From positions 90,210,001-90,274,000 of the forward strand of contig OZ260663.1 in assembly GCA_965285935.1 (NCBI GenBank): a DNA stretch of 64,000 nt, written 5' to 3'. The translations under genes were made by a program, and so were the position numbers. Below the pieces are notes generated by a model that was not told the DNA's origin, did not search any database, and saw only the letters and a list, made by a program, of their open reading frames with translations. Positions 2,061-53,839 of the stretch are shown here, piece by piece. Position 1 is the first letter of the stretch; each line of letters begins with the position of its first letter. The stretch comes from Ophelia neglecta (lineage: Eukaryota).

Positions 2061-4073
2061 CATAGAGACTGGTCTGGCTTGGCCTTGCATTGGATTCGAG
2101 TGTGCACAGCAATAAACTATACAGTTACGAATAACCGACATCTGTCAGCTATATTAAGCAGAAAAAGCTTAAAATTTATTCATAACTACTTTCAATACGA
2201 TTTTCATTTGAAGTTTAGTGTTTTATTAGAAATCACTGTTGATCTTGTCAAACTGTCAGTTCATTTACCATTGGCCCAGCGCATCTCTATACTATCTTAG
2301 GCACGATTGAAAGACCGAGGATAGAAGATAAATACAGTAGCTTACATGCTACTGGATTGTCGTCGGACTGATGCGAAAATGGTCTTAATAGCCTTTTAAT
2401 AGTTTTGAAGTAATCAACAAAATCTGATTAAAGTTGTTTAGATATGATTTGTCCATCTTTCGGCTTTTAAATGTGTGTGTCAAAATGGCCTAAATTATTA
2501 AAGGCTTCAGGATAAAAATAGCATGGGCCACTGGACTTGGTGTCAATATGGCCTATGTAACATATATCTAAAAGTCCAAAATGGCTTAAGTTGCATCTAC
2601 CATCACCTTCCAAATGGCTTTAGAACCATGATCTTTTTATTTGGGTAATACAGGCTTTAAAACTATAGATTTATGTTGGTGTTATTAGACGGGCGTTCAT
2701 AATTCTAAATAAAAACTTATGCGAAATGTCACTTGGGTCATTTCCACATAAGACAATTTTATTGTTTTAAAAGTGATGCCGTACAAAGGAAACACATATC
2801 TCACCTGTGATGGTCCACTGTCTATATTATTCAAACAGAAAGCTGATGACATGTATGAAGGCCAACGCAATAGCTAGGCCGAAAACATCCTACTCCGCAT
2901 ACGGCATTTGATGTTGTGAGACTTAATTTAGCCTGCGTATTCACCGTTGATGTATAAACGTTTATGGTTGCCGCAAGACTATATGAACACCTGAGGTTTC
3001 CACGCAGCTGGTCACGCTCGTTTGAGAAGGGGAGACTTCTGTTTTTATAGAGGGCTTTTACGATGATATGCACGTATATGACCTTGGAACATTATTAGAA
3101 ACATTACTAAGCGACCTACAAATGATACTTTATGGTCAAAATACCACAGCAATATCACATGATCTCATTCCTTGGATATATGATACCTTACTATTACTGA
3201 GCTTCCAACACACACAAAAAAACCTTTTTTTACTGCCAACAAGTTTGTCAAAGGCGCCTATGGTTTAAATGTAAGTAGTTATTAAAGGAGATTGATCTAC
3301 CGCGATTTGAATAGGCCATAGTTTCAAGTGCTCGATTTATGGAAACGGTTCTTTGTCTTCATCAGATTAAAACCATCAGATTAAAGTGCTTAACTGGTCT
3401 GAGCTTGCTAAGTGGTTTTTCTGGAGGTTGGATATTATCTTATAACTATAGTCATGTGGATCTTAATTTAACCTTTGTCAACGGGTTACTGGGACAACTT
3501 TTAGCTTTGTTCCGAGCTGGTCGGTAATATGCTATCAAAATTAAACCTAATACCCATTTTAAGACATTTTTAAGACACCGGACCCAGAGTATTGATAGCT
3601 GTCTGAAACACCCGCTAAGTGGATATAAGCCATAGGAACAAAATGATTGACCTAAGGGTGACAAATAGCTTCTGCTTCGTTCCATATGATAACGACATGT
3701 TAAACGCCACTATACGTTCATTAATAATCAAAAAACGATAGTGTAATGTTTATACACAAAAAGCGCTATCATAACAATATATAAAGCTTAACGAGGATGT
3801 CTCAATAATATTTATCATTCCGATTAACAAATTATATGGTATTATCTTGGAAACGACGAACCGTTTCACATTTTACTTGAACTGTTTAATTAGGATTAGG
3901 AGCACATCCTTCAGAGTGACATTTCCCTGCTACATATTATTCCTCAACCCGATATTTTTTTCAAGATGTTCAGTACAATGCAATCGTTCCTTTATGAAAA
4001 TTTTTGATATGTCATTCCTCATACACGATTCGTGACTGTTTTCAATATATTTCATTTTATGTACCATTTGATA
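2061..4073. repeat. ~2-kb dispersed repeat, copy 1 (same-orientation copy at ~51789-53670)
   Basis: Collinear, diverged blocks shared with 51789-53670, e.g. catagagactggtc, aataaactatacagttac, gatttgtccatcttt, ggagattgatctac, ggacccagagtattgatagctg, gagcacatccttcagagtgac. No long ORF. Confidence 0.85.
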
Positions 4074-4976
4074 GGCACTGTAACAATCGGTGAAGATAAA
4101 AACATCAAGCGTTTGGCTTGTTTGTATCATGTTCTTGCAGGTCCTTTCTGTTGTATTTCAAAGGCTTTTCAGGTATAGCAAGCGGGCGGACATCTTTATT
4201 GTGTTTATTATAGGTGGTATGAATGGTGATTGAACACTTGTGTCATGTTTATTTATCATTGCAGCATGCATGAACCCGTCTAAGGACATTCAATGATCGT
4301 AACAACAAAGCAAGCTTTTCAAAGTGTTCAATGGGCATGTCGCCCTCTGCAAACCCAAAAGTGGCTCTTTTGAGAGTGTTCAGTGGTTGTTTCGACGAAA
4401 AGGAGGAGTAACTTTGTGGGCTCAGGTATTAAGAGTCTTTGATATGCTGGTATGTTCGTATCTGACCGGATACCTAAACCTTTTCTTTCAGTTCCTCCGG
4501 TTTAAATCCATTAATTAATCAATATATTGAATGTTGTAAAAAGATATTATATACAAAAATTCAAATGTGGTTTGGGCTGGGGCTCGAATCCACAACCCTT
4601 GCGGTACCATCCAACTAGCCCACCGATACCGGCGACTCTATTTGTGGGATCCAGTCCCAGACAAGTCAACAACCATATTTGAAATTCCAAAAGCCCAAAA
4701 AACTTAAAATTATCGCTCGGTTTTACACTGTAGGTTTTAAAAGGCCTATATGGCCCAGCCTGTACGGAGAAAATATATCCTGCATCGATTTCAATAAATA
4801 TATATAAAAGAAATTATAAATTTATATCAAAGTAATACCAGAAGCAACAATTACCTTGTATGTGCCTCTATCTTGGTAGTTTTCAAGTAATTATATATGG
4901 ACTTATTTTCAAGATTAAACTAAGGTAAGAGAAATAATGCACACAACAAAAAAAGCATGGATAGCCATACAAAGTA

Positions 4977-7868
4977 TTGATATATCGAACATTCATTGAT
5001 CACATCGTGTGCTCCGACCTTCTTAACCATCAGATCTCGGCTGTCTGTGTAGTTGATGATGACCATCGTAATACATCGGACCATCTTCCAGTCGGGTGCT
5101 CCCTGTCCGTGCCGACCTTACAATCATTCTCCTGTGTTAAATCCCCTCGCCTGGGATGGAGAAAGATGGCCTTCGCTGATAAGCAACAGTACATGGCTTC
5201 CCTTGACCACTGTCTGCCCTGCTCAACTACAGCGCCATGCTCACCCGAGGAAGTTAACAGTCTTTATAAGCAGGTCGTATCAGCATTACGCGTTGCCTCA
5301 GAAGAAGCCGTTCCCAAATCCAAATTCAAACCATACTTGAGGCCAAATTGGCGCTCATCGGGTTTGAAGGAACTTCAAAATAACCAGTTTCTCCTCCGTT
5401 CTGTCTGGATACGGGAGGGCAGGCCCCGCGGGATGCAGCACACTTCCTACCGCAAATACAAGCAAGCCAAGCGCCAGTTTGCAAACAATCTGGCAAAACT
5501 AGAACGAGAAGCCGATGTATCATTCTACAGTGAGGTAGACAAAGAAGCCGGTGCAAACCACCCTCGACTCTACCGTCTCCTGCGAAGGAAACGCGAGAAA
5601 AAGTTAAATCTGGCACCCCCCTTAGACATAGGAGGGGCGACACTTACTACACAGAGCGACATCATTCACGCTTGGCACGATCACCTTTCATCTTTTTATT
5701 CTCCACTGGTAGACCCAAACTTCGACGAAGCCCACAGACTCGCCGTCAGCAGCACTGTCAGTCAGCTAGAGGCCTGTGGGGCTGGGACTGACACAATTCT
5801 CGCCAACCCCATTACCACAGGGGAGATTCAGAACATCTGCGGAGAATTAAAATCTGGTTCTTGCGGTGGGCCCGACGACATAACTTACGAACACATTACG
5901 TTCGCCAGTCCCAAACTTTATTCAACGCTCGCCGCCCTATATAACTCTATGTACCAAACCTCTCATTTCCCACCTGCCATGAAACACAGCCTCATCGTAA
6001 CAATACATAAGGGCAAAAAGAAACACAAGGACGACCGTAAAAATCACCGTTGTATCAGCCTGCTTCCCGTCCTGTCTAAAGTGCTGGAAAAGATAATCAT
6101 GAGTAGGTGGTTAAAGCACAACGCCCACAACGATATCGACTTTCCATTAGATAGTCAAAACGCTTACCAGAAAAACAGGTGTTGCCTGTTGACGTCTTTT
6201 GTACTGCAAGAAACAATCGCTTATGCACGTGAGAGAGGGACCAAGGCGTACGTCTGCCTTATGGATGCCTCGACCGCCTTCGACGCCGTCTGGCACGAGG
6301 GCCTCTTCCTCAAGCTTCACCAGTTGGGTATCAGAGGCAAGCTCTGGCAGCTACTCAGATGCTCTTACCGCGACATGACTGCCAGCGTGGTGGTGAACGG
6401 CAAGCGGTCAGACCCTATTCTCATCAAACAATCATGTCGTCAAGGGTCTGTCCTTGGGGCGATGTTCTACCTGGTCTATATACACCAACTTACCGTCGAA
6501 CTACGTCAGAGCGGCAGGGGCGCTACTGTAGGAAATATTTGTACCACCTCTGTTCAACAAGCAGACGACATTGCCATTACTGCATATTCTCCGAGGGCCC
6601 TGCAAGATTTAATCTGTGTATGTCAACAATACGCGAACAAGTGGCGGTACAAATATAAGGACACCAAAACTACTGTCATGATTTTCAACGAATCAAAGCG
6701 GGAGGCCGCCAAACTGAGACATCACCGGTCATGGACACTTAATGGCTGTCCATTAAAGATATCGGATGAAGAAACACACGTAGGCATTCTCCTCAACTCT
6801 TTTCATACCTATAGCGAACGCGCCAACATCACAGTTCGAAAACTCAAGCAAGGGACCATTTCACTTTGCGGATTGGGTGTTCATCCTCGGGGACTCTCCG
6901 TCCTAACCGCCAGAAAGTTGTACATCCACATGATTATCCCAAAGGCTCTCTTTGGATGCGAACTGTGGTGCGATCGAAACCAAGGTGCAAAATCCCAAAC
7001 TGAGATAGCCCACCGGTTTTGCTTAAAAACCATACAGGATCTCCCTACACGAACCAGGTCTGTGATCGTTCACAGCATGCTCCACATTCCCACCCTGTCC
7101 TCCCGCATCGCGGAAAAACAGCTAGTCTTCATGGGCCGCATTCTCCAACTTCCACCAACCCACCTGGCTCTCAGACTATTCCGTCTACGACTCGCTCACG
7201 CTCTTTACGCTGCAACTCCTCATCATGGATCCTTGCCGGGATTTGTGGACAACTTGCACCGTCTGGGCTTGCAGGATTACCTTGACGCTTTCCCTGGGTC
7301 ATCCGTGTGGCCGAATCAGCGCGCCTGGAAAAGTCTCGTCAAAGGAGCTTCCAAAGACGAATTCGATAACTGGATGCGCGAAAATGTTAGTGCTCATGAT
7401 GAGTTCCGTCATTACGGGCTAACATGTGATGACCCTACAGCAATACATACCATCTGGCGAACGGCTCCTCTATACCCACTCCTGAGGGAACGGTTCTCCG
7501 ACCTGGCAGTACTGGCAAGTCAAACGCTGTCCGTGCCCATCCCCTGCCAGTTCTGTGACTCACCTGCGTCGGATGATCCTGACATACTAACTCACTACAT
7601 ATGTGATTGTCCAGAATTCAGAGATTTGAGGGACCTGTATTGGGATGATGTTTTTAATACTCTGATCCCTGTCATGTCAGTGCATCTTTACAATTTACCT
7701 GACAGAGAGTTAGTTAATGTAATCTTAGGGAAAAGCATTGCCATAGACAGTAGTAACCTTGACTCTAACAACGCTGGTAGGCAAGACACCAGCCTTTTAG
7801 AAATGTCTGCCAAGTACTGGAGCAGACTCAGCACATGTGTTAAAAGACAATTATGGGTCCACTTGTAG
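4977..7868 (+). CDS. Non-LTR retrotransposon ORF2, 5'-truncated (end of AP endonuclease + reverse transcriptase + C-terminal CCHC knuckle)
   Basis: 963-aa open frame. APE tail IDHI...SDHLPV; RT motifs GPDDI, NHRCISLLPVLSKVLE, DASTAFDAVWHEGL, RQGSVLG, QADD; C-terminal CQFC...HYICDC. No real start codon (begins at TTG in flank). Confidence 0.95.
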   Translation: MIYRTFIDHIVCSDLLNHQISAVCVVDDDHRNTSDHLPVGCSLSVPTLQSFSCVKSPRLGWRKMAFADKQQYMASLDHCLPCSTTAPCSPEEVNSLYKQVVSALRVASEEAVPKSKFKPYLRPNWRSSGLKELQNNQFLLRSVWIREGRPRGMQHTSYRKYKQAKRQFANNLAKLEREADVSFYSEVDKEAGANHPRLYRLLRRKREKKLNLAPPLDIGGATLTTQSDIIHAWHDHLSSFYSPLVDPNFDEAHRLAVSSTVSQLEACGAGTDTILANPITTGEIQNICGELKSGSCGGPDDITYEHITFASPKLYSTLAALYNSMYQTSHFPPAMKHSLIVTIHKGKKKHKDDRKNHRCISLLPVLSKVLEKIIMSRWLKHNAHNDIDFPLDSQNAYQKNRCCLLTSFVLQETIAYARERGTKAYVCLMDASTAFDAVWHEGLFLKLHQLGIRGKLWQLLRCSYRDMTASVVVNGKRSDPILIKQSCRQGSVLGAMFYLVYIHQLTVELRQSGRGATVGNICTTSVQQADDIAITAYSPRALQDLICVCQQYANKWRYKYKDTKTTVMIFNESKREAAKLRHHRSWTLNGCPLKISDEETHVGILLNSFHTYSERANITVRKLKQGTISLCGLGVHPRGLSVLTARKLYIHMIIPKALFGCELWCDRNQGAKSQTEIAHRFCLKTIQDLPTRTRSVIVHSMLHIPTLSSRIAEKQLVFMGRILQLPPTHLALRLFRLRLAHALYAATPHHGSLPGFVDNLHRLGLQDYLDAFPGSSVWPNQRAWKSLVKGASKDEFDNWMRENVSAHDEFRHYGLTCDDPTAIHTIWRTAPLYPLLRERFSDLAVLASQTLSVPIPCQFCDSPASDDPDILTHYICDCPEFRDLRDLYWDDVFNTLIPVMSVHLYNLPDRELVNVILGKSIAIDSSNLDSNNAGRQDTSLLEMSAKYWSRLSTCVKRQLWVHL

Positions 7869-10641: not shown

Positions 10642-12597
10642 ATGTATTTGGAAGGCGGTGTCAGTAAAACTATTTCACAGTACCGGAAGTGGTTTTACCC
10701 CAGGACGTGGATTCAGATGATGTTGATAGTGTCTCTCATGTCACGCTCTGGTGGATGGATGGCAACTGATCCCCACTCACACTTTCTTGGGTGTTTCAGG
10801 GATAAGTTGCCAGCATCTGCGATGTCTATTTCTAGGTAAGAATTACTCCAATTTGAATGAAGCTTCCCCCGAAGTAAATGGACGGTGTGGGTGGTAGTTG
10901 GGTTGTGCGTGGGTGTTTGTGTATGTAATTTTGCAGTATGAAGGAATATTCATGCGCGCGGCAAAATATGCATTATTCAGACAGCGGATGGTAATAAAGT
11001 AGTCCTCGTTATCTTTATATGCGTAGTACATATTTGTACTTGTTTTGCATTAACGGGGAGGGAAGGGGGCTAGTGAGTGCGTACATTATGTAGTAATGTT
11101 AGGCTAGAAACAAACGTTTTTTGACCAAAATGTATTCAAAATTTCTGTGGTATGATACACCCATTTAGCGTATGCATAATATTATTGAATATACCGCATA
11201 CCATTAACAACAGCATTTGGATATGTAAATCAATAAGTTTTATTATTTATTGCTGCCTAAAAACAAACATTTTATACAAATTGGTATCAAATATCAGGTA
11301 CCAATTCCAACGGTATCTTCAACCTGATGAATGCAATATTATCTGTTTTTAAAACAGAACTAGTTATTGGATAGTGAGTAAGATGACCTTTCTTTTCAAT
11401 TGGCGTGTATCCAAATAACCTATGGGCTGAAGTATTATTTGTTTTGTAATAGTCATAAATGCTTCTTGATAACACAGTATGTGTATTTATGTCTATATAC
11501 GCCTACATGTTGCCTACATGTGTTCTCTCAATGAATTCGATATGAATTGTCTTTCAAAACTAATTAATAAAATATTATTTTTCAGCTTTCCTAGCCGAAT
11601 TTTCAGCATTTCTCAGTGTCTGAGTTATTGTGTGTTACAAGAGCGTACATTCGCAGGACTTCAAAACGCCGGAATCTGTCACTGCAGCGACACCTATGGA
11701 GAATATGGTATATCGGCGTCATGCGTGAAACCATGCAATGCAGATAAGCAGTATGTCTGTGGTGGGGTGTTAGCAAGCAGTATATACTCCTCCTGCCCTA
11801 AAGGATCCTTTGGCAAGAACTGTGTGTTTCAGTGTCATTGCAAAAACAACGCTATCTGTGATCTTAAAACCGGAAGATGTCCGAACGGGTGCGCATCCGG
11901 CTGGGAAGGCAAACATTGTTATTTTTCTTCCAGCATGAATTTCAGAAACATTTTTTCTGGTAATAAAAAGGTTGCGTCAAAGGAAATGGCTTTCGCCCAC
12001 TCCATGGGAATTGAAATCGGTCTAGGTCCAGACGCCACTTCCGACAAAGCCCAGGGTAGAGAGATAGATCTAGGCCGAGGGTCCACTTCCGTAAACTCAA
12101 TGAGGAAAGATATACGCAGGGGCCCAGAAGTCACACCAAGTCAGCCCGAGTCAACCGAGATCGGTGTGAAGCAATCATCGGGAACGGTAAACGGCACGAC
12201 GGTGTCACTTCAACAAAACTTGTACGAATCTGCGCGAGCATCATCTGAGACTATTGTGGAGCCTGACGTCACTCTACAGCCGTCGATAAACACAAAAAAC
12301 ACGAATGCATCAGATCCAGCAAACGAAAACATATACAATCCCGGCATGACTTTCCAGGAGTGGAAAGATAAGAACTATGACCAGTCCGTGAGACCTCGGA
12401 TTATCGGCTTTTCCGCCTTGGCCGTAAATGTGGTTGCTATTATTTGTCTGTCACTTTTTGTCTGGGAAAGACATAGCAGGCGGCCTGTCGAAAAGTCAAC
12501 GAAACAAAACGGAAAAGTGTCCAAAACAGGGGATGTTTCGGGGCCGAAAGAAATGTACGTCATTCACAGGGCCATCTCGGAAAAAGCTGAAGTCTAG
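10642..12597 (+). CDS. WSC-domain, EGF-like, single-pass membrane protein (2 coding exons: 10642-10835, 11586-12597)
   Basis: Exon 1 ends ...FLGCFRD...SIS AG|gtaag; acceptor ttcag|C at 11586 is phase-compatible (phase 2). The joined protein gives a WSC pattern (FLGCFRD...CLSYC...FAGLQNAGICHCS...CVKPC...CGG...SIY), a MEGF-type EGF (CPKGSFGKNCVFQCHC...CDLKTGRCPNGCASGWEGKHC), an S/T-rich stalk and a TM helix (IIGFSALAVNVVAIICLSLFVW). Start codon uncertain. Confidence 0.85.
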
Positions 12598-15500: not shown

Positions 15501-18061
15501 TGAGTCTTGGGAAAAACTGTACATTGAAAAAAGAAGTTATCTATCGCCATTGCAGAGCCGTGACCCAGTGAATGAACCCTAACTAAATTTTCATACAATT
15601 AATTCTAGTTGTCTCACCTTAAGTATTTTCCAAAAAAAAAAAAAATAATAATTTCCTGATATCTGTTGATACAATACAACTATATCCTGTTCACAGCGCC
15701 TTGGGTCACCCCGAGGCCCTGCCACACATTACACCTAAAATGTTTTGACCATTGGAACTGTCCGTGCGCATGTAGATTTTGCCAGGCCGCCCGCAATCGC
15801 GAGTCAATCAGAAGAAATCAGTTTGATGAAAGCTGACGAGGGAAGTAACTATTTATTAGGCATGTCCGGCACGGTAAATTGCTATCTGAGTCGTGTTAAA
15901 GCTTTGTAAGAACACCATTACGGCGATAGAGTATCCGACCAAGACGCCTAACACAAAAAGCGTATGCTTATAATCTAAAGTGACGCTACCAACAATATAG
16001 ATTTTGTTTGATCAGCTGCATCAACACGAAGCTCTACCAGCCTTGCGGAACCCATAGAAATGTTCTGCGATGCCAGGAATACGCTGGCAACTTTAAGCTT
16101 GTACACATAGACGGCCAGGATCTGATAAGCTGTACACCTTACACAGTAGGCGGAGCGTATAAAAAGTGTCAACATACTATGGCTGAAACCTGAAAAAATG
16201 CGTGCAGTATCTTCAATTATATGGCATCCATATTAACGGTAAGTTCACCTGTAACACGTGATACATGATAGGTGGCGGACACTTTTTTTAATTTGGCGAA
16301 GAGTGCTCTTATTCGTGAGCGTATAACTAGTGGGGCGTGTCTTCAGGGATTTCTCAGGTTCCTGGAAAGTTATGAAGAGGGGCAGGCCTTAACGCATAGT
16401 AGATATGGTCTGAGAGCAAGATACCACAACCATGATTAAACTCTGTTGGATCAGAGAAGAAGTTTTGTCAACTTATTGGTCGTTCTAAAATCAAAAATTC
16501 TTCCTATCATATCCTTGTTGTTATTTATCCACACTTGACCACTTCTTTGTACCATATTATATGCACACTACTTTCATTAAAGCACCCTGTGAAAACAACG
16601 TTTGCTAGACGTAAATCATTTCCAGTTTCTTCTATCTTCCTTGATATCAACGTTAACTTTGTAGAGAGTGATTTTGTTTTAAGGAACACATATTGTGTGA
16701 TATGGCGTCGGTGGTTGACATTCAGTAAAAATGAGGAGCAAGAGAATTATTATAATTTATTCTACACCAGGAGATGTTATACCTAAAACAGTGCAAAATA
16801 AACTAATATTAAGCCTAGTGCATATATATTGAAAGAAGCTATACATGAGTAGGCAAAATAAACCGATAGGTATTTACATTACGAGAATGGTGTAGACAAG
16901 GATTTATCACTGAGCGAAATTCCTAAGGATTATAATAGAAATAAGTAGAATCCAGATGGAGAGCTTATTTTGCCTGGAACAGTTATATACATCTATTTTA
17001 TACTTATGCTAAAACAAAATTAATCTGCTTATGTGCTGTTTTGAAAATATTGCAAGCTTAACCACTATGTGCAAGTGGCCAACAACTCAATGAAAAAAGT
17101 GCAATTCTTTTCGGTATGATCAAAGGCTTTAAGCGCTTGAGAAACTCCGTGGTGGATTAGTGACGTCCTCCGCCTAGGGGATCAAAATCCTGGTAAAAAT
17201 ACTAGAGACGAGACTCTTGAAATGTGGCTATGTTCTTTGGGGTTAAGCTTGGGGCAAGGGTTAATAAGGGAATGGACGTCATTAGATTGTCGGTTAAACC
17301 GCTTCACATTAATTTCTTAACATATTTCTATTATTATCTCCTGTATTTTTCTCAAATTTCATGTTATATTTAACAGCATGCCTCCTTCAGATGAAGTGTT
17401 CTTTACCTTTAACAAATGTGACGATTTTCTTTTTTCTTCCTACAAGGATCGTAATAATATACTGCCTCGCCTTCGGTACGTCACCTTTAAATGTTGCTTT
17501 AATAGTTCGCAGTTTTCCGGGCTTGTATTAATACACATAAATGAGAACCGGTTTTATTACCGTAACAATGGTTCTCGCCTTATCTTGTAGATTAATACAA
17601 CCCAATCAGTGTCATCATTGTTCAAAGTGAATAGCCTTATAATGCCAGGCTGTTCTCTCCGGGAGATTAACAAAATCGCAGGACAACACGATATCATCAC
17701 TCAATTAAACCACAAAGGAAGTCAGAAATTAGCATCATATTATACTTTGCAAAAAAAAATGTTATTCGGCTATTTCTGGATCTTACTAAAGAAATCAAAC
17801 CTATTACCTTTTTAAGTAGTTTGCTTGCTTCAATTAATCTATGAGAGTATAGCTTTGTTCATATATAATTAGAAATACAACACCACTTTTATATGATTTA
17901 TGAGGCACAACTATTGAATCAAAAGGTATAATCATATTATTGTTCCATCACACTGGGTTTCCTATGTCTGCCCTTTATTTTGATTTAAATAGAGAAGAGA
18001 ATTGTCAGTTCACAGTGGCGCCTGATCTGCTGTACAGAAGAGTGTTTGTAACCAAGGATTG

Positions 18062-21000
18062 ATGATGGAAGTGTGCCACCTCTTATGCTATAACTGTTTT
18101 CTTATACTAATCTTTCCGTGGGAACTTTCAGGAAAGGAATGGGGTGTGTTCGTTGACTTGTCAGCTGCTCGTTGTGGCCTCAGGGCATTAAAAATTACAA
18201 AGCTTAGCCCCATTTTGATTATGAGCAGTATTGTAGAATGCATGGGCCAAACGACCAATGAGTGGGGAAGCATAGATATCGAAAACGACACAACTGGGAC
18301 ACAACCTTTCGGCAGTTTCCAACTCGTTTTGGCAAAAGAGGAAATGGCCAACGCCCAGAGTCAACCATATGTCTTCAAAGTCATAACACATCCTCGTCTG
18401 GGAATTAATATAACAATGGAGAGGTTTGAGATGGGTTATTCTGGAGAACCTTGTTTTTATGACCGGATGGAGCTTTACCAAAAGGCAAGTGTTAACCAGA
18501 CAAGAACCTCTTTTGGTAGGTATTGTGGAATCCGACCAGTGTGGAACATATACTCTAGTGAGCATATGATAGAATGTCACATTGTATATTCAGGTTCCTT
18601 TGGTATCGATTTACAAGCAAGCTATCAACCGTACGACTTGGCTGACATCACTGTGATTCGAGCGAGTGCTGGTATCACCAGGATAATCTCGAATGATTCG
18701 TATCCTTGCAACGAGGACGTATCTTTTCAACGAGATCCTTTAGAAAATGGAGAATATGTCATATTATGGGACAATGTTCAGACTTACAGCTGGGTGTATC
18801 AGGCCAATTATGCAAAAACTGTATCAGTAAATATGCACTTAAAAGGGAGCAGGATAGGTGATGTTCTAGCGCTATACGAGGGACCAGTTAAGGATTTGGC
18901 GATGCTTATATGGACATCAACCCATTTGGAGCCCTTTTCTGGCAGTACAATAAGTCGTCGGTCCGTCGGACCCCTTCTTACCGTGACCTTAACCACTAAC
19001 GACATGTCCACAATAACATTGTTAGTGTCAGCCTGTGACGCCGATGGTATGCTTGATAAATACAACATGTCGTTGGCCGAGGATCCAGTTACGCTCCAAA
19101 GCAGCCAGGTTTGTCTAAACAACAAACGCGTTGTGTATTGTATAATTACTTTAAATACATTGCCCGGGTTCTACCCTAGTGTACTTGTTAATGACTTGAT
19201 GTACGATGGACCAGATTTCAATTATTGCGCGATAGCTATGGTGTCCGTTTTTGACCGACAAACCGAAGAAAAGGAACTGGTGTTCCAGTTTTGTCGTTAC
19301 AATCAAGAAGTGTCTAATTGGACATTGGTAGGAAACGGACAAAACATTGTGATTCTCATACACTCATATACTCCGGTAATGAAATATTTAGACCAAAATA
19401 AGGTAAAGGGTATGTTTAATTTAAACATTACCACATCAGCCAGTCACTGCCGTGGCTTCAGGATGGAATGCAATCCCAACATTTTGCATTATGAGTGGAG
19501 ATACATAATGAACTTGCCTGCACCGTGTAATATTGTCCAGTTAAGGCCTTTACCAAATAGATTTTCGACTAAAGCTGAAAGTAGACAAGTTTGCTTCCAC
19601 AGATTAGCTTATGATTACGAGGTTGCATTATCCCGTGCTATGTACTCCATAACAGTAACCGCTTTAGGCTGGTCTCATATGTGTAAAGAAGACATTTACA
19701 TGCGAATAGAGATCAGTGATGCAGAAATACGTGGCTCTTTCTCCGATGCCATAAGATCTGGCTCTCGAATGTATACTGGAGACCTACTTAATATCCGCGT
19801 CATGAATTACTGCTTATGGTCTCGAACATGGTTTGATGTGATTGTCGAAAACTTTTGCGGCAAAAATGTGAATAAAGTCAGTTTCGATTGGCCCATCGTT
19901 GCAACAGAAATATCACCTGTGTGTTATTCGGGAAACCTACCAGCTATGAATAGAGTCTTCAGGTTCATTCCGCAAGTTGTCGACACAAAAGAACTCTCCA
20001 ATGATGTAAACACAGTACCATCTATTCTACCAGAGGACTTTGATAATATGGCTAAAGAAGAGTGTACACATCCCAACGGCACATATTGTATGCTGGTAAT
20101 GTCCTTATCGATGTCAAAGTCATGCCCTGAACATTGCGTGAAGGACCAGATGGAGATATTGGACGGACGAGGGGGGACTATGGGAAGCATGTCATATTTG
20201 CGGTTCTCAAGGGCGTTTATAAGACACTTTAGTTTCACTTTTCAACCTTCCAACTGGAAGCAGATGGCTGTGTTGGTTGATAGGGAGTTCAACGCAACTG
20301 ATGAGTGCCGTCACAGCCGATGCACAACCAAGTACTTGGTCAGCCATTCTATGCGCTCTTTGTATTTTTCGAGAGAGACAGACACCCCGGAATTTGCTTT
20401 AAGGGAAGAAACATTCATTGAGTTTAAGTATAGATCACATATATATTTTCTGTTTCCTTTAATTAATTCGACCTGGAGACAAAGCAGAGTGTTGTGCACA
20501 AATAGGCAGGCAGATTTGGTAACGATAGTAACAACCGAGGAAGAAGACGTCATAAAAATGGCATACGACTATAGAGTTCAAAATCAAAAGGGAGGTGTGA
20601 GGGAGGGCATGGCGTTTATCGGATTGAAGGGGAATAAGGTTTGTATTTAGCTGTACTAGAACGTCGAAAACTTACAACGACCTATTCACGAAATAACAAA
20701 GTCAAAACTTCTACACATGAGGAAGGCCTTTCAAAATACTATACAATATGACCGTCTTATTAAAACAAAATGTAATGAAATTATATATATGTATTGGCAA
20801 GTGATAGCTGTAGTGGGGAGGGATGGTGGTGGTTGGGCTAGGGGTTGGTGGTAGTGGTGGCGTGTGTGAGTATGTGGGTGTGTGTGTTTGTGCGCGCGGA
20901 GGGGGAGGAGGGGTTCTTGTTGTTCTTCTTCATATTATACAAAATTTCATTGTGTATTTTACATCCAAAGTCTGACCGACATCCCGGCAGATGGATCGAC

Positions 21001-22212
21001 GGACGTCCCCTAACTTTCACGCGCTGGAACACATTACCCAGGACAGGCCAACAACTGATCACCCTGAGGCACGCCGGTGGAGTCAACTTTCATGGTTTAG
21101 AATATCCCTGGTTTTCCTACGTAAAGAATATCTCACGAGAAGTACAGCCAATGGTAGATTTAGATTGCACCGCAATGGTCATCACTACTGGTTTACCAGC
21201 AGTATGGATTAGTGTTTCGTGCGATCGGACTTTCTACGATGTTAACCTTCTGTGCAAGGCCCCGTTAAATGAGTATCGGACTGGGTCGTATGTAAGTGAC
21301 ACGGAAAAAAAGCCACTGCGTGTCTCTGACGGATTCATGACATCCTGCAGAGGTTTGGCAGTGATTTCGATTAATGATATTTGTGTCGGATTGAGAAAAA
21401 CAAGCATAGCTTTTGATAACTCTACCGGAAATGAACTGCTGAATCTGACAAATAAATTCCTGAAACATTCCCTCCTTCCTCTGATCCATTCCCTTAGTCA
21501 TGCCATCAATGCTTTATTTGTTGTCAATTTTGAAGGCCAGTGCACAATAATTTACCCTGCCAGTGAAGCAAGATATGAACAAGTGCTTCACAAATGGCGT
21601 AAGCATGATTGTACCAGTCGTTTATTGAATGAATCGTCGAATGTGTATGGGTTAGTAGAGCTACGCCATAGTACCATACAGATGGAATGCCCCAATGGCT
21701 TTTTCTCATGTGACGATGGCACTTGCATCCCACAATTTCGTCTTTGTGATCAGGCCGTGGATTGCAATGGCCGCGAAGATGAGATCGGACAAATCTGTGT
21801 CGGTATGTTCAACAATTGGCCTCCTTCTCTCGAAATGAGTGACACACACCCTTGCAGGTTTCACGCGCTTGCTGCTTTCCTATGCGATAACGGTGAGTGC
21901 ATTTTGGATATCCAGAGATGTGACTATGTGGTCGACTGCGCTGATGCATCCGATGAACGTGAATGTTCTTACAGAACCCGAAGACCACTACCTGGTATGT
22001 TTCAATGTTATAATGGACAGCTTATAGACAATCACAAGAGATGCGATGCGCACAAGCATTGTTTAGATTCATCCGATGAAGACAACTGTAACCAATCACC
22101 ACCTTGTAGACATCCACACTTTGTTTGTGATGGTAAATGCCTGTCAAGAGGTAGGGTTAATGATTTGATACCCGATTGCTTAGATGGAAGTGATGAAAAT
22201 GTATACAATTGA
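18062..22212 (+). CDS. 5' part of GRL101/LGR-type GPCR: signal peptide, CUB-like domains, C-type lectin domain, 4 LDLa repeats; ends at a transposon-created TGA (exons 18062-20638, 20971-22212)
   Basis: Hydrophobic N-terminus; CUB-like motifs (GINITMERFEM...CFYD...GRYCG; CIITL...C...FCRY). Phase-0 intron AAG|gtttgt (20639) to ccaaag|TCT (20970) joins the CTLD halves (WRQSRVLC...LVTI...FIGL|...WIDG...FTRW...C...W..VSC...LLCK). LDLa repeats with DC.D.SDE. Confidence 0.88.
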
Positions 22213-22881
22213 CCATTCCTGCAATACCATACGCCGCCTGGTGGTGACCGCAGAACTACGGTTTTCGTACTTCTCGGTCGACCACTTTTCGCGAGCCACT
22301 GCGCATCCCACTGCGCATGTTATGCAGGTCACCAAGGGACATGCGAACAGCTGATCAAGATGGCTTGACAAGCTGTCCCCAGTTGTTCCACGCGAAGTAT
22401 TTCGGATCTCCAATCGCGACTCCTCGTTTATTAACCAATTGTTCTTGGTCGAAATGTCTAGAACACAGCCTAGATCGTTTGTTCACGTTTAATTTGTCAA
22501 CGATCGTGTAGTTTCCTTCGAAGGTTTGCCTTCTCTTCGTACAAGGCGCCGCCATCATGCAACCGATGCCGGGTTGTCACGGGGCCATTTAACCCAAGAT
22601 ATTTGTTCCATCCAAGGATATTTGTCCAAGTGTTTCATCTTCCTGCTATGCGAGAAGCATTCTGTTGCCTCGAAGATAAACACCATCGTCCCTTCTTTCG
22701 TTTTAAAGCTCAAAATAACGGTTGTACGACGCAGACCTCAGCATAACATGAAAAACGCCATGCATTGTTTATGACAGCTTGGGTCCGCCGACTGGAGTGG
22801 TCGACTTTTTTCCCACAATGCATTGCGCGATCGTAGTTCTGCGGTTTCCACCAGGCGGCGTATGGTATTGCAGGTATGGTC
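22211..22881 (-). mobile_element. Non-autonomous TIR DNA transposon carrying a decayed THAP-domain ORF (ISL2EU/PIF-Harbinger-group-like), inserted in GPCR exon 2
   Basis: ~50-bp imperfect TIRs (gaccattcctgcaataccatacgccgcctggtgg..accgcagaactacg and its reverse complement at ~22832-22881), flanked by AATT on both sides (equivalently an AT TSD around TGACC...GGTCA). Minus strand from 22686 reads MVFIFEATEC...KWPRD...*WRRLVRR, then after a frameshift RLCSRHF...DPKYF, a THAP signature. Confidence 0.9.
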
Positions 22882-24891
22882 AATTCGATTCTAATCACTG
22901 GAGATGAGTCAACTGAATGCAACAAAGCAACCCACTTGCCATGCTTGAAGGGGCATCCTCTGTGTTACCCCATGGAGAAAACATGTATGTTAGAGTTTGA
23001 TCTTGATAAGCAACTACTTTACTGCAGGAATGCTGCTCATCTTCAGAATTGTAGCATGTGGCAGTGTGCAAACAGCTACAAGTGTCCAATGTCATTCTGT
23101 ATCCCTTATAGATACGTATGTAACGGAGTGGCAGACTGTGTTAACGGTGAGGATGAATCGCAGTGCGAGGTCGGCGTAACATGTCCGGGTATGTTGCGGT
23201 GTAGCGGGATTTGTATCGAACCGGCGGAAATCTGTGACGGAGAAGTGCACTGCCCTAACGGTGATGACGAGAGAGTTTGTATATCCGAATGTCCTGACAA
23301 CTGTCAATGTGTTGGATTATCAGTTGCATGCTTATCCAATATGTTAACCCGTATTCCACACGTTAATTATATGTTAAGTAGCTTGGTTCTCAGTCAAAAC
23401 ACTCTATCATCCATAGATCTGCCCCCAACAGAAAACTATGGAAAATTACGTTCTTTGTTTCTGATCAACAACAAAATTTCCGATTTGGCCGCAGGCGCAA
23501 ATAATGTATTAAATAATTTGCCAAGTTTAAAGGTTTTGGATTTGTCAGGCAATCAGTTACAACATGTCGATTCGTTGAGCTTTCCTTTCAGAAGTAACAC
23601 AGTACATTACCTTTCCCTGGCATCAAACCATATATCATCATTGATGAATCATGCATTTATGGGATTTACGCACCTAGCCTCTTTAAACATTTCAAACCAG
23701 ATGCTTTATGATATATCTGACGATGCATTTTTTGGCGTTGTAAACTTGCACACGCTTGATTTACACAACAATCGCCTTTTCCAATTGAAAGTGACATGGT
23801 TTAAAGCGATGCCGAAATTGTCTTTTCTATATCTTAAAGGAAATCAAATATTTATGGTAGAGCCTAATGTTTTCCAGTCTTTGAGGGCAGACGTACATGT
23901 CGAGTTCAGTGATCCAGACTTATGTTGCTTGGCCAATTTGATAAACTGCTGGCCGAAGCGCCAAATCTTTAATGAATGCACCCGATCAATACTTTCTCTT
24001 CATACAACAATTTCTACTTGGCTTTTTGTGGTGATTTGTATTACTGGTAATGTAACAGTCATTTATTATCTGCAGCGAGGTAGTACGAGGCTAAATGGTC
24101 ATTCGTTACTTGTCGTTAATCTGGCAGTGTCTGATTTGGCATACGCAGTTTATTTAATCATTATTGCTGCAGCAGACATACACGACCCTCATGCATTTTA
24201 CGACAAACTCTGGAAGAAAAGCATTATGTGCAAGGCTGCTGCGTTCCTGGCTACCCTGTCTCACTTAATGTCGACTCTTTTGAGAATTCTCATAGCTTTT
24301 GATCGCCGTGTTGGTATACTGACTCCACTTAAGACACTCAAAAGTTCAAGAGACAAAAAGAAAGTTGTCTTGCTCTCTTGGCTTGCCAGCATTTGTATTT
24401 GTTTGATTCCGTTTAATCCGTTTGGCTTTGCCTGGAAGTCTCTGGCGCACTCAGCCTGTGTTACCTTCACCTTGACAGCTGATGACACATTCCAATTTGT
24501 ATTTTCTACCATTCTATATGTTTTTCTCACTTGCTGTGTGAGCTTGGCATTGTCAGTCATATACATTACTTTATATTTGGTCCTTATGAAAAGAAATACG
24601 AAATCCCAGCATTCTGGGAACAGCGTCGGCAATACAAAGAGGTATGCCATGAATTTCTCTTTAATCATTCTTTTAGGACTACTCTCCTGGATTCCAGCTG
24701 GAATAGGTTTATTGCTTTCATTGTCTGGAGTCCAATTACCTCGAGAACTCGTCCTTTGGATTTCAATATACATTTTACCAATGAACGCCGTTCTAGATCC
24801 GTACATCCTGACAATCTGCACTAAAAGTTTCCTAGGAAAGTTGTCTGGCCCAAACCTGACTAAAATTACCAGCACTAGCGGCCTTGAGTGA
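22876..24891 (+). CDS. 3' part of GRL101/LGR-type GPCR: LDLa repeats, LRRNT + LRRs, rhodopsin-class 7TM
   Basis: 671-aa ORF: atypical Cys module (CLKGHPLCYP...CRNAAHLQNC), 2 LDLa, CPDNCQC LRRNT, LxxLxLxxN repeats, hinge LCC...C...C, 7TM (GN; NLAVSD; W..S..CKAAAFL; FDR; C; WIP; ILPMNAVLDP). Same reading frame as the ORF upstream of the insertion; its ATG lies within the transposon TIR. Confidence 0.92.
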   Translation: MVNSILITGDESTECNKATHLPCLKGHPLCYPMEKTCMLEFDLDKQLLYCRNAAHLQNCSMWQCANSYKCPMSFCIPYRYVCNGVADCVNGEDESQCEVGVTCPGMLRCSGICIEPAEICDGEVHCPNGDDERVCISECPDNCQCVGLSVACLSNMLTRIPHVNYMLSSLVLSQNTLSSIDLPPTENYGKLRSLFLINNKISDLAAGANNVLNNLPSLKVLDLSGNQLQHVDSLSFPFRSNTVHYLSLASNHISSLMNHAFMGFTHLASLNISNQMLYDISDDAFFGVVNLHTLDLHNNRLFQLKVTWFKAMPKLSFLYLKGNQIFMVEPNVFQSLRADVHVEFSDPDLCCLANLINCWPKRQIFNECTRSILSLHTTISTWLFVVICITGNVTVIYYLQRGSTRLNGHSLLVVNLAVSDLAYAVYLIIIAAADIHDPHAFYDKLWKKSIMCKAAAFLATLSHLMSTLLRILIAFDRRVGILTPLKTLKSSRDKKKVVLLSWLASICICLIPFNPFGFAWKSLAHSACVTFTLTADDTFQFVFSTILYVFLTCCVSLALSVIYITLYLVLMKRNTKSQHSGNSVGNTKRYAMNFSLIILLGLLSWIPAGIGLLLSLSGVQLPRELVLWISIYILPMNAVLDPYILTICTKSFLGKLSGPNLTKITSTSGLE

Positions 24892-28927: not shown

Positions 28928-30330
28928 AAAAGTCTTTATGTTAGCAATGTAAACATATATCAATAAACATGTACTGGGCATCTAAACACGATTTATTTAG
29001 CTTTCCAAGGCCACCTGTACTTGGGGCTACGCTGCAGGAACTGCTCTGCTATGTTACTATAGAGAGATAACCCTACCCTGACACAGTGCAGGACAGCTTA
29101 AAGCGTCTCAAGAGTACGATCGAGGTAAAGACAGGGCAGCGCCCGAAGCTCCGAATAGAGCAAACACTGGCAAATGTTATCAAGTATCCTTTGAAGGCCA
29201 TACTGGGAATCCTGGCACGAGACCCAGATACCAGATAATGGTATTTACAACTATTCCATATGGATTAGGTTTGACTTAGGTTTAATGTTTATAGATGGAA
29301 TGTTTCAGTTAGGTTAATGGCTTTACCCTGCCTCTGCCCTTGTCCTAACAGACTCGAACTTTTCTTTTCTAATCAGGGTATTGTTTAATTCCCTACATAT
29401 CTCGTACCAAGTTTTCCAGTCTGCCCTTACAAGTAAAGTGGAATGGTCGATATTGCAACTTGCCTCTGGGGAAGGAACTGCATCGTATCCAAAGTAGTTT
29501 AGGTAGTTTCCGATGCTTGTTGTCCCAATGATGAGCTCTTCCATCCCCATGCCGGACACCGAGTAGATGTTCCTCACGGAGGACACTTCACCGGAAAGGT
29601 TGCCAGAGATTAGGTCAGGCTTGGAGATCAGGTAGCCGAGTTCGGTCCACTGTGTCGGATGTTCATGACCATATATGTCAATAAAGAGTCCTTGTCCAGG
29701 TATGGTATTACGAGCTGTTTGTATGTACCCATGATACGCTTCCCAAGCCTCCTCCGCCTCGCGGACGCCAAAGGTCCCCTCGCCTTTCTCCCTGTTAGCG
29801 TCCATTTTAAGGCGGCGTAGATGGCATTTGACCACGTGAGGAGACTTCCCTGTCAAACGCTGTAACACTGCGCTGACTTTATCAGCCAACTGCAAGGTGA
29901 AACGGTTAGTGTACGTCTCCACAGAACACCTAAAACAGATTGGATCCGATATTAAAATTACTACATTTGGAAATATATGAAACTATGGAAAAGATATTGG
30001 CGACTTTTCAATTTAAACCCAGCAGAGTTCGCCTAATTCCATGCCAGTCAGTCTTCGATTTATTTCTTACCTTGATGTGTTTTTAGGTCCACACGTATGG
30101 GTGAAAATACACTGGCTCCCGTCCCAGCACCCTGAAGTTCTATCAGGTATATGGCTTGGACTAGCCGTACCTCCGTGTGGGACGGAGAGAATGACATTCA
30201 GGGTACCAGGCTGGTAGTGGACATAGGGAGAAGTGGTTGTTGCACTGACCCTGCCCTGAACCACAACGTGGAGGACGAAAAGGAAAACGAATAAAACCAT
30301 TCCTCTTATCATGATGATCGAAAGGTTCAT
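28527..30330 (-). CDS. Secreted N-formylglutamate amidohydrolase-like protein (3 coding exons: 30330-30071, 29929-29464, 28739-28527)
   Basis: Signal-like N-terminus; family motifs ILSVPHGG, HLRRLKMDANRE, AWEAYHGYI, LFIDIYGH, ELGY, AVPSP.SPSPG..YFAGGY.T.RYGS, IDAIQIE. Intron 1 is GT-AG phase 2; intron 2 is GAG|gcaagt...ttacag|TCT phase 0 (GC-AG). Stop TAG at 28529-28527. Confidence 0.85.
28891..28924. repeat. (AT)n microsatellite
   Basis: Perfect AT dinucleotide run inside intron 2 of the amidohydrolase gene. Confidence 0.95.
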
Positions 30331-32510
30331 GGTATGGGACTGCGAAATCTAAAGATAAAAAAAGTCTTATAAAATGTTCGTTAAACCAACGAAGAGTAAA
30401 CAAATTTACGTAGTTTATAACCTGATCAATGTCAACTTGTTTTCAGGAAATAAGGGGATGGATACCTGGCAGATAAAGGGATATCTTTAATAAAGAATAG
30501 ACAAGTCTATTAAATCGATCTGACTATATATGTAAGAGTTAAAGAAACTCTTGTTTGCGAGAAAAGCCGAATCTGTCCAAGTAGTGAAAAGAAATTACAT
30601 GTACACGCGTTAAATAGTCTCTGTGTGTACATTTTTCATTAAATAAGATACCAAAAAAAATCTATAACTGAATACTTGTAAGAAATGTAAGAATGGGCAA
30701 AATATTGCGTCATTGTGTTGACACAACCTAAATTCCGAGAGATAAGCCCACTTAAAGCATGGACGTTTACTTAACTCACCTAGATACTTTGCTTTCAAAT
30801 AAGCTGTAGTACAATTTCAAAACTGGTCACAGATATGTGCGAACTGCAGCTGGAAATGCAGTATCCGCCTCGGGTTCAACACGTAAACAGAGGTAAATCC
30901 GGACGTACGAATGGGATATCAAACAGCAGATTCTATGCGTGGGCCATCGGTTGACATGCATACATGAGACGAATGATATATCATTCAATTAAAATAGACA
31001 TATTGCTTTATGTGACTTTACTGGCAAAGCACTATTAATATTTATTGTGATACGGAAGTATGAATATGTATGACGACAATTCCGTATCGGGCCATAGGCA
31101 GTTATGAATCCGACGTCACAGGCATTGTTGCCAAGATAAGCAGTGTAATCCACAAATATTGCACTTTAAAATAAATATTTACCCTTAAATCACCGACTCA
31201 TATCTTTACGGCTGTGTGATAATTATAAATACGTTGTACATCTTCGAGGGGTTTCCAGTTTGCCCCTATTATCGCCCAGTGAAAATATACAATATTCAAA
31301 CGTAATGTCGGTCGGCAAGTCATCATCTTGTACAGCCAATGCTTTTCTCGATATTTTCATGACATATACCTACGGATTCGTCGTCTGGCCAATGAATAGA
31401 AGCAATTGCGAAGCTAACAAAATAGCTTTATTTTATCTCATCACTGATCATTAAATGCGATGCCATTTACGTGTGTCCAGCAAATTAAGTTGTATTAAGT
31501 TAATACATAGGAAAACGAATGCTAGCGACCATGAATGGAATTACTAATACCTAGTTGGCAATTTCTGCCAAACCTTATATTTGGTACGCCCATGATTTGA
31601 GATTGTTGATATCTGTAGACGACAGTCAGTGCTCGGTGAAGGTTATTGTACTGATAGAATCCCATAAGGTATTCAGCTAATTGCACATTAATATACTTTC
31701 AAAGTACCTTTGATGAAATATATATCTCATATTCAACGTATGTTGGTAACCTTAAACGCTTATCAACCAAACCAGACATTTAGTTGTTCATTTTTCATGT
31801 GGGTATATTTCATTTAAATCCAATTGGCTCTAATTTAAAATGAATCGCATATGAATGTTCTGCATAGAAAAGACGCAAGGGAAAATTTCAAGGTATTACT
31901 ACGAGCATTCAGTTTGAACTTTGAAGAACATACACTCAAATCACCATAAAAACTATGGTATGACATTTACCTGATCTGAAAAGTGTATGTATAACGAATA
32001 AAGTCATTACCATAAATGCACTATTTGAATGCTTTCACGTTGTTTTAATACAGTTATTTTATGCATTTATTACAATCGAAGGCATTTATGATAAACAAGG
32101 TCTGGGCGGTAAAGGTCAAATAAAATACTAAAGTTCAAACATTGTCCAAGATGGCAATGTGCTTCAATTTGTACTGTTAAATGCAAACTGTCAGTTTGAT
32201 TTTTAAAAATAAGCTCGATTTAGTTATGTCACATGCTCGTTGCAAACCGACCAAAAGCCCAAAACTGTGATATATCCCAATATTTAAAAAAAATGAATCA
32301 TTGGCTCAAATACAAAAGCAATTGCACTAATTTGCAAGTACATCAAGAACGGATATATTTATTTTACACCTGTCAATTACAAGGCATATTTTCTGGTGTA
32401 TTTGTTATTTAATAATATACCTGAATAAGAAAGAAATTTTCCTTTCTCAAATCTGTATAAGGCAAGCACCGGCATTGTACATGGTACCCTGTACCATAGC
32501 GAGATCTACC

Positions 32511-32956
32511 TCTACCGGACATGACCTGCTTCATGTGGCAAATAAATTCCTTCCTCTGATCCATTCCCTTAGCCATGCCATCAATACTTTATTCGTTGTC
32601 AGTTGGGAAGGACAGTACACAATAATGTTCCCTGCCAACGAAGCAAGACATGAAAAAATTCTACACAAATGGCAAAAACATGATTGAAACAGTCGTTTAT
32701 TGAAAGAGTCTTCGAACTTGTATCAGGAAGTAGAGCCACAATATAGTGATATTGCCGTGCGACGATTGCCCACAGTTTCGTGTTTGAGACCAGGCCGTGC
32801 ATTGCAATTGCCGCGGAGACGAATCTGTGTTCAACAATTGACCCTCTTCTCTCATAATAAGTGGCAAACACTCTTGAAGGTTTCACAATTTTGTTGTTTT
32901 ACGGATTGCGGCGAGAGCCTTTTAAATATTCAGGTATGTGACTATGTTGTCGACTG
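32511..32956 (+). pseudogene. Decayed fragment of a GRL101-like GPCR paralog (matches ~21421-21939)
   Basis: Translates as STGHDLLHVANKFLPLIHSLSHAINTLFVV...HKWQKHD* versus STGNELLNLTNKFLKHSLLPLIHSLSHAINALFVV...HKWRKHDC. Shows TGT>TGA, deletions and frameshifts, then LDLa remnants (CDYVVDC). Confidence 0.9.
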
Positions 32957-53670: not shown

Positions 53671-53839
53671 CTCAATGTGAGAATGTCATTATTATTAAAA
53701 CTAAACTTATTATAACAGCTTAGTTTCTGGCTCTTAGAACCTCATTTCACATTACAATACGATGCCAGGTGATTTTTCCATAGTTACATAAATAAAGCAG
53801 TGACAAAGTGCTTTATACTTTATTTTTACCTGCCTCTTC

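What the first reader, a model, noticed from the sequence alone, without database searches (positions are those of the whole stretch)
18062..24891. ~1940-aa GPCR combining CUB-like, C-type lectin, LDLa and LRR modules on one 7TM, with only one intron
Established: GRL101/LGR type C receptors have LDLa + LRR + 7TM. Seen here: an extra ~1000-aa N-terminal extension with at least two divergent CUB-like domains, an unassigned Cys-rich region and a CTLD. The CTLD lacks the EPN/QPD and WND sugar-binding motifs (it has QPM and WIS). The gene has two huge exons (2.6 kb and 3.2 kb), whereas LDLa/LRR genes are normally heavily intron-split. Inference: a member of a lineage-specific, possibly retroposition-seeded family of pattern-recognition or chemosensory GPCRs with a composite ectodomain.
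Basis: partly seen in the sequence, partly recalled or inferred. Interest (0 to 1): 0.72.

Follow-up and report, generated by a model that had tools for sequence, protein, structure and literature searches.

The report
Transposon-hit member of two-exon receptor family
This is a giant cell-surface receptor gene, broken in this assembly by a young transposon but intact in raw DNA data, whose domain line-up is common in invertebrate databases, and which belongs to a family of well over a hundred two-exon genes in this genome that likely arose from one intron-stripped copy and likely recognise varied outside molecules.

Summary
The gene is real: signal peptide, three CUB folds, a Cys-rich region, a split C-type lectin domain (QPM/WIS), six LDLa, LRR and 7TM, 1940 aa. 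But 'exon 2' is not continuous here. All three DNA runs hold the empty site, and allelic pN/pS is 0.27, so an intact allele exists. The architecture is not new: 53 of 120 listed database hits carry CUB+CTLD+LDLa+LRR+7TM across bilaterians, CTLD-LDLa-LRR-7TM is published for Biomphalaria, and this scan noted a similar clam gene. The less ordinary part is the family. At least 184 loci (125 with an open frame of 880 aa or more) lie mostly in tandem clusters. Sampled members share the two-exon plan and one phase-0 intron, at a site where the closest intron-rich relative (28 segments) has none. This fits retrocopy, intron gain, then expansion. Exon 1 evolves faster than exon 2, and most 7TM domains have lost LGR activation residues. 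No RNA evidence was available. New variant of GRL101-like (type C2) LGRs.

The parts
18062..20638 (+). Coding exon 1 (859 aa): signal peptide, helical segment, three CUB folds, Cys-rich beta region, first half of CTLD
   Evidence: ORF and donor; same exon plan in paralogues
18062..18130 (+). Hydrophobic N-terminus, predicted signal peptide
   Evidence: Hydropathy 1.3-2.2 over residues 1-21; no dedicated predictor run
18302..18658 (+). CUB domain 1 (res. 81-199)
   Evidence: Pfam CUB 1.5e-05; VIA Z 11.4, rmsd 2.3, 103 aligned; hhalign 98.2%
18680..19048 (+). CUB-like domain 2 (res. ~207-329)
   Evidence: hhalign 80.2%, 37 columns; part of two-CUB alignments to PCPE-1
19049..19450 (+). CUB domain 3 (res. 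330-463)
   Evidence: VIA Z 12.1, rmsd 2.1, 115 aligned; hhalign 96.3%
19451..20416 (+). Conserved Cys-rich, beta-rich region; possibly two degenerate CUB-like modules
   Evidence: Cys conserved across family; low pLDDT; only faint CUB similarity, E 0.10-0.13; profile match to amphioxus P0057 runs through the first module
20417..21258 (+). C-type lectin-like domain split by the intron (20417-20638 + 20971-21258); QPM at 21145, WIS at 21205
   Evidence: Pfam Lectin_C 0.034 on first half; hhalign 97.8% on second half
20639..20970 (+). 332-bp phase-0 GT-AG intron, 4 codons after CTLD FIGL
   Evidence: phase-0 GT 1-6 codons after the motif in 21 of 21 family loci examined; not RNA-verified
20971..22210 (+). 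Exon 2, part before the insertion
   Evidence: contiguous with the 3' part in the paralogue's 1130-aa ORF
21343..21663 (+). Degenerate second CTLD-like module (weak)
   Evidence: hhalign 30.8%, E 5e-4, 19 columns; a CTLD-like sequence is visible at this place in L032, P0057, P0131
21688..22200 (+). Four LDLa repeats
   Evidence: Pfam Ldl_recept_a, 4 stretches, 1.9e-25
22211..22881 (+). 671-bp non-autonomous TIR element (MITE), AATT duplication at 22207-22210 and 22882-22885; creates TGA 22210-22212
   Evidence: 40 of 40 scored candidates (335 found) full length at 99-100%; perfect 4-bp duplication in 24 of 32 copies; longest frame 93 aa; empty site in 3 of 3 DNA runs
22886..24891 (+). Exon 2, part after the insertion: degenerate LDLa-like repeat, two LDLa (23065-23280), LRRNT and LRRs (23290-23900), hinge (23920-23990), rhodopsin-family 7TM (24010-24810), stop
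   Evidence: Pfam LDLa 4e-08, LRR_8 7.7e-23, 7tm_1 9.6e-19; paralogue model matches TSHR/FSHR/LGR4 structures
32507..32956 (+). Decayed fragment of a paralogue (second CTLD-like/LDLa region), 70% identical

Best explanation
The locus encodes a GRL101-like (type C2 LGR) receptor of 1940 aa whose assembled copy is interrupted by a recent MITE while an intact allele exists, and it is one of at least 184 related loci that likely descend from an intron-stripped (retroposed) copy and likely act as a diversified set of receptors for outside macromolecules. Shown: domain order, insertion, empty allele, purifying selection, family size, two-exon plan, intron position, faster exon-1 evolution, loss of LGR motifs. 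Inferred: an mRNA of a CUB-CTLD-LDLa-LRR-7TM gene like the one on C8 was retroposed, gained one intron in the CTLD, and spread by tandem duplication with frequent gene death. Inferred mechanism: the CUB/CTLD array binds proteins or glycoproteins (microbial or environmental) without classical Ca-dependent sugar binding; the LDLa-LRR-hinge unit passes this to the 7TM bundle; because the usual LGR switch residues are replaced, signalling would be non-canonical or weak.
For: Empty site in 3 of 3 runs at single-copy depth. 12 synonymous vs 12 non-synonymous coding differences, pN/pS 0.27, P=0.002. Paralogue at C5:92.41 Mb has the same two exons intact, 42-55% identical. 184 distinct loci, 125 with open frame >=880 aa, 166 in clusters. 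First sample: 18 of 20 loci show an exon-1-like ORF or fragments upstream, 14 with both frames open; second sample: 19 of 20 with an exon-1 ORF >=700 aa. C8:56.30-56.32 Mb gene has 28 aligned segments colinear with Lamellibrachia LSAT2_016795 and no intron between IYIGL and the next Trp; the C7 gene has a phase-1 intron inside YIG instead. The family groups with C8/P0131/P0057 at FastTree support 0.93 and 0.90. dN/dS exon 1 vs exon 2: 0.74 vs 0.54 (P=7e-4, 13 genes) and 0.61 vs 0.42 (P=0.009, 6 genes). A CTLD-bearing GRL101 cluster lies in a schistosome-resistance region in Biomphalaria (PMC12297450, passages).
Against: No transcript evidence for expression, tissue or the splice junction. No 100-codon window has dN/dS significantly above 1 (best 1.27, P=0.21), so relaxed constraint explains the exon-1 excess as well as diversifying selection. 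The tree has very long branches and weak internal support; by BLAST score the C8 gene is not the top match of the family. No poly(A) remnant or flanking duplication was sought. Gene structures of the amphioxus and tubeworm relatives were not seen. GRL101 expansions in apple snails are expressed in tentacles and palps (PMC6573481), which favours chemosensation over immunity. The window gene itself sits in a two-member subclade, not in a large cluster.
Confidence: 0.55

Rival explanations
1. The family is a chemosensory receptor repertoire of sensory epithelia; the divergent 7TM pockets bind small cues and the long ectodomain mainly anchors or concentrates ligand in mucus.
For: GRL101 expansion (29-132 genes) with tentacle and palp expression in ampullariids (PMC6573481); tentacle-biased GRL101-like genes in starfish and triton (PMC6267866, PMC13403566); tandem arrays, intron-poor genes and many broken copies; extreme 7TM divergence.
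Against: Within recent clusters the 7TM region is not the fastest part; exon 1 is. A 1400-aa ectodomain is kept in all sampled intact members.
Confidence: 0.25
2. The divergent members are non-signalling surface-binding or decoy proteins in which the 7TM is only a membrane anchor.
For: The window gene lacks the hinge FSSCxDL Asp, TM3 Glu, TM6 Asp and TM7 Tyr found in conventional relatives; cluster members also lack the TM3 DR motif.
Against: Seven helices are modelled at high confidence in the paralogue; 7TM windows have dN/dS below 1; the window gene keeps NLAxxD, DR, WxP and TM7 Asn.
Confidence: 0.12
3. It is an endocrine receptor for an insulin-like peptide, as proposed for canonical GRL101.
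For: LDLa-LRR-7TM core of type C LGRs; hypothesis in PMC8286064 (passages); type C1 relatives bind relaxin-like peptides (PMC11863921).
Against: A conserved, multi-exon canonical GRL101 is present separately on C12; over a hundred fast-evolving copies do not fit a one-ligand hormone system.
Confidence: 0.05
4. The window locus is a dead gene, or exon 1 and exon 2 are two separate genes.
For: In-frame stop from the MITE; relics nearby; no RNA seen.
Against: Empty allele in all runs; pN/pS 0.27; no other lesion in 5.8 kb; each exon holds half of one CTLD and the junction is conserved across the family; full-length gene models join homologous regions in amphioxus and tubeworm.
Confidence: 0.05

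Closest known systems
GRL101 / type C2 LGR (Lymnaea stagnalis GRL101)
   Same: Multiple LDLa, LRR, hinge and rhodopsin-family 7TM; fold matches TSHR/FSHR/LGR4
   Different: Not the orthologue (that is on C12); adds about 1100 aa of CUB/CTLD modules; 6 LDLa rather than 12; hinge and TM motifs degenerate; two exons
Biomphalaria sudanica SudRes2 GRL101-like cluster (PMC12297450)
   Same: CTLD+LDLa+LRR+7TM, tandem cluster, presence/absence and truncated alleles
   Different: 12 genes versus >=184 loci here; no CUB mention in the main text (0 hits); exon structure not seen (supplements not read); orthology not tested
Uncharacterised CUB-CTLD-LDLa-LRR-7TM gene models (Lamellibrachia LSAT2_016795, Branchiostoma LOC144862181, Glandiceps LOC144437958)
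   Same: Same module types and order; the first two are the best matches to the exon-1 profile and nearest named sequences in the tree
   Different: Conserved 7TM motifs; the local orthologue of the tubeworm gene has 28 aligned segments; here two exons, massive expansion, long branches
Ampullariid GRL101 expansion (PMC6573481)
   Same: Tandem, lineage-specific expansion of GRL101-like GPCRs
   Different: Ectodomain and exon structure not described in the passages read; tissue expression known there, unknown here
Sola1-type MITEs (AWWT target duplication; PMC3845634)
   Same: 4-bp AWWT-type duplication, TIRs, non-coding, termini resembling GGACC
   Different: No autonomous partner or transposase was looked for; 8 of 32 copies lack a perfect duplication

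Membership tests
Type C LGR (GRL101-like, C2) | Rhodopsin-family 7TM preceded by LRRs and hinge | tested here: met
   Pfam 7tm_1 and LRR_8 above cut-off; Foldseek top hits TSHR, FSHR, LGR4 for the paralogue model
Type C LGR (GRL101-like, C2) | Multiple LDLa modules N-terminal to the LRRs | tested here: met
   6 Pfam LDLa stretches; definition from PMC11863921 and PMC4079206 passages
Type C LGR (GRL101-like, C2) | Phylogenetic placement among GRL101-like receptors | tested here: inconclusive
   Groups with CUB-CTLD GRL101-like sequences, but no type A, B or C1 outgroup was included and branches are long
Canonical GRL101 orthologue group | Orthology with Lymnaea GRL101 | tested here: not met
   A separate C12 gene is 60-67% identical to GRL101 orthologues over one exon; the window's C-terminal part is 26% identical to the Lymnaea protein
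Signalling LGR | Conserved hinge FSSCxDL, TM3 Glu, TM6 Asp, TM7 NPxxY (functional roles recalled, not from a call) | tested here: not met
   FNECTRS, SHL, LGLLSWIP, DPYIL in the window gene; the C5:68.6 Mb member keeps them
Signalling LGR | G-protein coupling | not testable with these tools
   Needs a cell assay
Ca-dependent sugar-binding C-type lectin | EPN/QPD and WND motifs | tested here: not met
   QPM and WIS at the aligned positions
CUB domain | CUB beta-sandwich fold | tested here: met
   Residues 81-199 and 330-463 at Z 11-12, rmsd 2.1-2.4; 207-329 weaker
CUB domain | CUB fold in residues 464-762 | tested here: inconclusive
   pLDDT mostly under 50; hhalign E 0.10-0.13
Retrogene | Loss of the parent's introns | tested here: met
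   One intron versus 28 aligned segments in the C8 relative; that intron is absent from C8 and differs from C7. Parentage itself is only moderately supported
Retrogene | Poly(A) remnant and flanking direct repeats | not tested
   Event too old (about 30% protein identity) for these marks to be expected
Sola1 MITE | AWWT 4-bp target duplication with TIRs | tested here: met
   24 of 32 copies perfect AATT; criterion from PMC3845634 passage
Sola1 MITE | Cognate Sola1 transposase element | not tested
   No search made

The most novel reading that the evidence does not exclude
One retroposed copy of an ancient CUB-lectin-LDLa-LRR GPCR seeded, in a probable annelid and other animals, a repertoire of 125 or more 2000-aa, two-exon receptors with fast-changing ectodomains and rewired 7TM switches: a large germline-encoded recognition system built on a hormone-receptor scaffold, largely missed by annotation and still turning over (a MITE knockout allele segregates at this locus).
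Probability: 0.35. Interest if true: 0.72.

Novelty: new variant of a known kind. Interest (0 to 1): 0.48.

Why it matters
The single gene is ordinary in architecture, but the family makes an open question testable: whether expanded GRL101-like orphan receptors of invertebrates serve immunity (as suggested for snail schistosome resistance) or chemosensation. A two-exon design with the whole variable ectodomain in one exon is easy to clone and swap. It is also a clear candidate for retroposition followed by intron gain seeding a very large family of 6-kb coding sequences, and a warning that a haploid assembly can show a null allele of a working gene.

Tried and rejected
No RNA holder was listed for the locus; this says nothing about expression. 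Zygosity of the MITE is open: the three runs are one sample, their contigs look like mosaics of two haplotypes, and no listed contig shows the filled junction. The ESM Atlas gave no result for exon 1 or for P0021. A word-indexed search for long homologues of exon 1 found none among 4231 candidates (weak evidence), while the full HMMER search found 13, of which P0008 (tolloid CUBs) and P0010 (repeat) were dropped as unrelated. The MITE as an introner: rejected, 0 of 11 other copies lie in a frame longer than 89 codons; in-frame cryptic splicing around it is possible (donor after 22150 scores in the family's range, acceptors have poor pyrimidine tracts) but unshown. 2-bp or no-duplication models for the MITE fit 26 and 31 of 32 copies and cannot be excluded. 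C7 multi-exon gene as parent: rejected by tree and intron phase. Positive selection: no window significant; pairwise values are non-independent and were not relied on; an ancestral-state script failed and was replaced by parsimony. BLASTP of the second CTLD-like region against P0057 found nothing. Literature: no paper held all of CUB, CLECT, LDLa, LRR, 7tm; none held GRL101 with intronless; 12 held GRL101 and CUB, and in the 4 whose passages I read the CUB hits shown were DOI strings; Nath et al. (PMC11886862) has 0 hits for LRR, LGR, GRL101 or intron in the main text. One search returned mostly unrelated papers. Subscription papers and supplements were not seen.
Full report
Observation. The window (G000:C5:90210001-90274000, a 762-Mb animal genome) holds three long + strand frames at 18026-20650, 20842-22212 and 22837-24891. 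Exon 1 starts at ATG 18062 and ends AAG|GTTTGT at 20638; the in-phase acceptor is at 20971. Pfam gives CUB, six LDLa stretches, LRR and 7tm_1 above cut-off. An AlphaFold model from a 14-sequence alignment (mean pLDDT 57) aligns to CUB structures at residues 81-199 and 330-463 (Z 11-12, rmsd 2.1-2.4), and profile comparison supports a third CUB between them. Residues 464-785 remain unassigned. The CTLD is split by the intron, with QPM and WIS at the QPD and WND positions.

The missed insertion. The gap between the second and third frames is not an intron. It is a 671-bp element with 54-nt inverted arms, flanked by AATT, which creates TGA at 22210-22212. All 40 scored candidates of 335 are full-length copies at 99-100% identity; 24 of 32 copies examined have a perfect 4-bp duplication, as described for Sola1 MITEs (PMC3845634, passages). 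Contigs in 3 of 3 DNA runs of one sample skip exactly these 675 bases at single-copy depth. The 24 coding differences among the 40 listed (one more was not shown) split 12 synonymous, 12 non-synonymous: pN/pS 0.27, P=0.002. So an intact 1940-aa allele under purifying selection exists and the assembly shows a recently disrupted one. Whether the animal is heterozygous is likely but not shown.

The architecture is common. Searching with a hemichordate homologue (P0021, found), 53 of the 120 listed hits (of 242; my hand count of precomputed Pfam labels, order not checked for most) carry CUB, Lectin_C, LDLa, LRR and 7tm_1, in hemichordates, echinoderms, amphioxus, chelicerates, a myriapod, nemerteans, annelids and molluscs. 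CTLD-LDLa-LRR-7TM GRL101-like genes are published as a 12-gene cluster in a Biomphalaria schistosome-resistance region (PMC12297450, passages). I found no paper describing the CUB-bearing form, but supplements, including that paper's Supplementary Data 7, were not read.

The family. A paralogue at C5:92.41 Mb has the same two exons with an unbroken 1130-aa second frame; another at C5:68.6 Mb has a 9.4-kb intron at the same place. Searching with the latter exposed many more. Five 7TM-region searches give 184 distinct loci, 125 with an open frame of at least 880 aa and no stop in the match, 166 within 300 kb of another; these are lower bounds. Of 20 loci sampled across clades, 18 have an exon-1-like frame or its fragments upstream, 14 have both frames open, one is ambiguous and five are broken or unresolved. 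Of 20 more from two clusters, 19 have an exon-1 frame of 700 aa or more. A phase-0 GT follows the CTLD 'IGL'-type motif by 1-6 codons in 21 of 21 loci examined; my rule found a plausible acceptor in most but not all. Four unnamed proteins from other animals end just after the same motif, and others are single frames covering CTLD-half to 7TM, so the plan is probably not confined to this genome.

Origin. The exon-1 profile matches the amphioxus and Lamellibrachia proteins best, and trees group the family with these and the C8 gene (support 0.93 and 0.90; long branches). C8 has no intron between IYIGL and the next Trp; C7 has a phase-1 intron inside YIG. Loss of all introns followed by gain of one fits retroposition; it is inferred, not shown.

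Mechanism. The paralogue's exon-2 model resembles TSHR, FSHR and LGR4. The window gene and its nearest paralogue form a long branch and have replaced the hinge Asp, TM3 Glu and TM6 Asp; the window gene also lacks the TM7 Tyr. The cluster members have drifted further. That these residues are activation switches is recalled from glycoprotein-hormone receptor work. In two young clusters exon 1 has higher dN/dS than exon 2 (0.74 vs 0.54 and 0.61 vs 0.42), but no window exceeds 1 significantly. The pattern fits birth-and-death evolution of receptors for variable external ligands. Published expression of GRL101-like genes in tentacles (PMC6573481, PMC6267866, PMC13403566; passages) keeps chemosensation a strong rival; the IGF-receptor idea (PMC8286064, passages) suits the C12 orthologue better. 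PMC4079206, PMC11863921 and PMC4085046 were read as passages for definitions and context; PMC11886862 was seen as a listing and a term search with no hits.

Verdict. Observation partly confirmed; architecture already in databases; this copy is MITE-disrupted with an intact allele; the large two-exon, motif-degenerate family is a new variant of GRL101-like LGRs. Interest 0.48.

Noticed in passing
window 4965-7868 (+): 967-aa open frame with a reverse transcriptase domain, a LINE-type retrotransposon
   Followed up: no
window 11473-12597 (+): 374-aa frame with WSC domain, EGF-like repeats and a transmembrane segment, probably a terminal exon of a membrane protein
   Followed up: no
window ~42300-59300 (-): Three tandem flavin monooxygenase-like gene copies, 66-96% alike in blocks; a further related block near 2100-3960
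   Followed up: no
L053, L058, L059 (C12:23.15 Mb; C5:30.77-30.79 Mb): MITE copies directly abutting further MITE ends, suggesting tandem arrays of the element
   Followed up: no
L033, L038-L040, L045-L046 (C5:87.08, 87.5, 96.2 Mb): Decayed relics of the window gene's subclade, one split by a large insertion with a 1010-aa unknown frame
   Followed up: partly
G000:C8:56298000-56322100 (+): Intron-rich EGF-CUB-CTLD-LDLa-LRR-7TM gene colinear with Lamellibrachia LSAT2_016795; candidate parent of the family
   Followed up: yes
G000:C1:26.51-26.69 Mb: Twelve family copies 95-100% identical in the 7TM region, some identical pairs; very recent segmental duplication or assembly duplication
   Followed up: no
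P0021, P0042, P0057: Hemichordate and amphioxus relatives carry a kinase-like Pfam match after the 7TM
   Followed up: no
window 29323-29982 (-): 219-aa frame without a Pfam match that reads like a real coding exon
   Followed up: no
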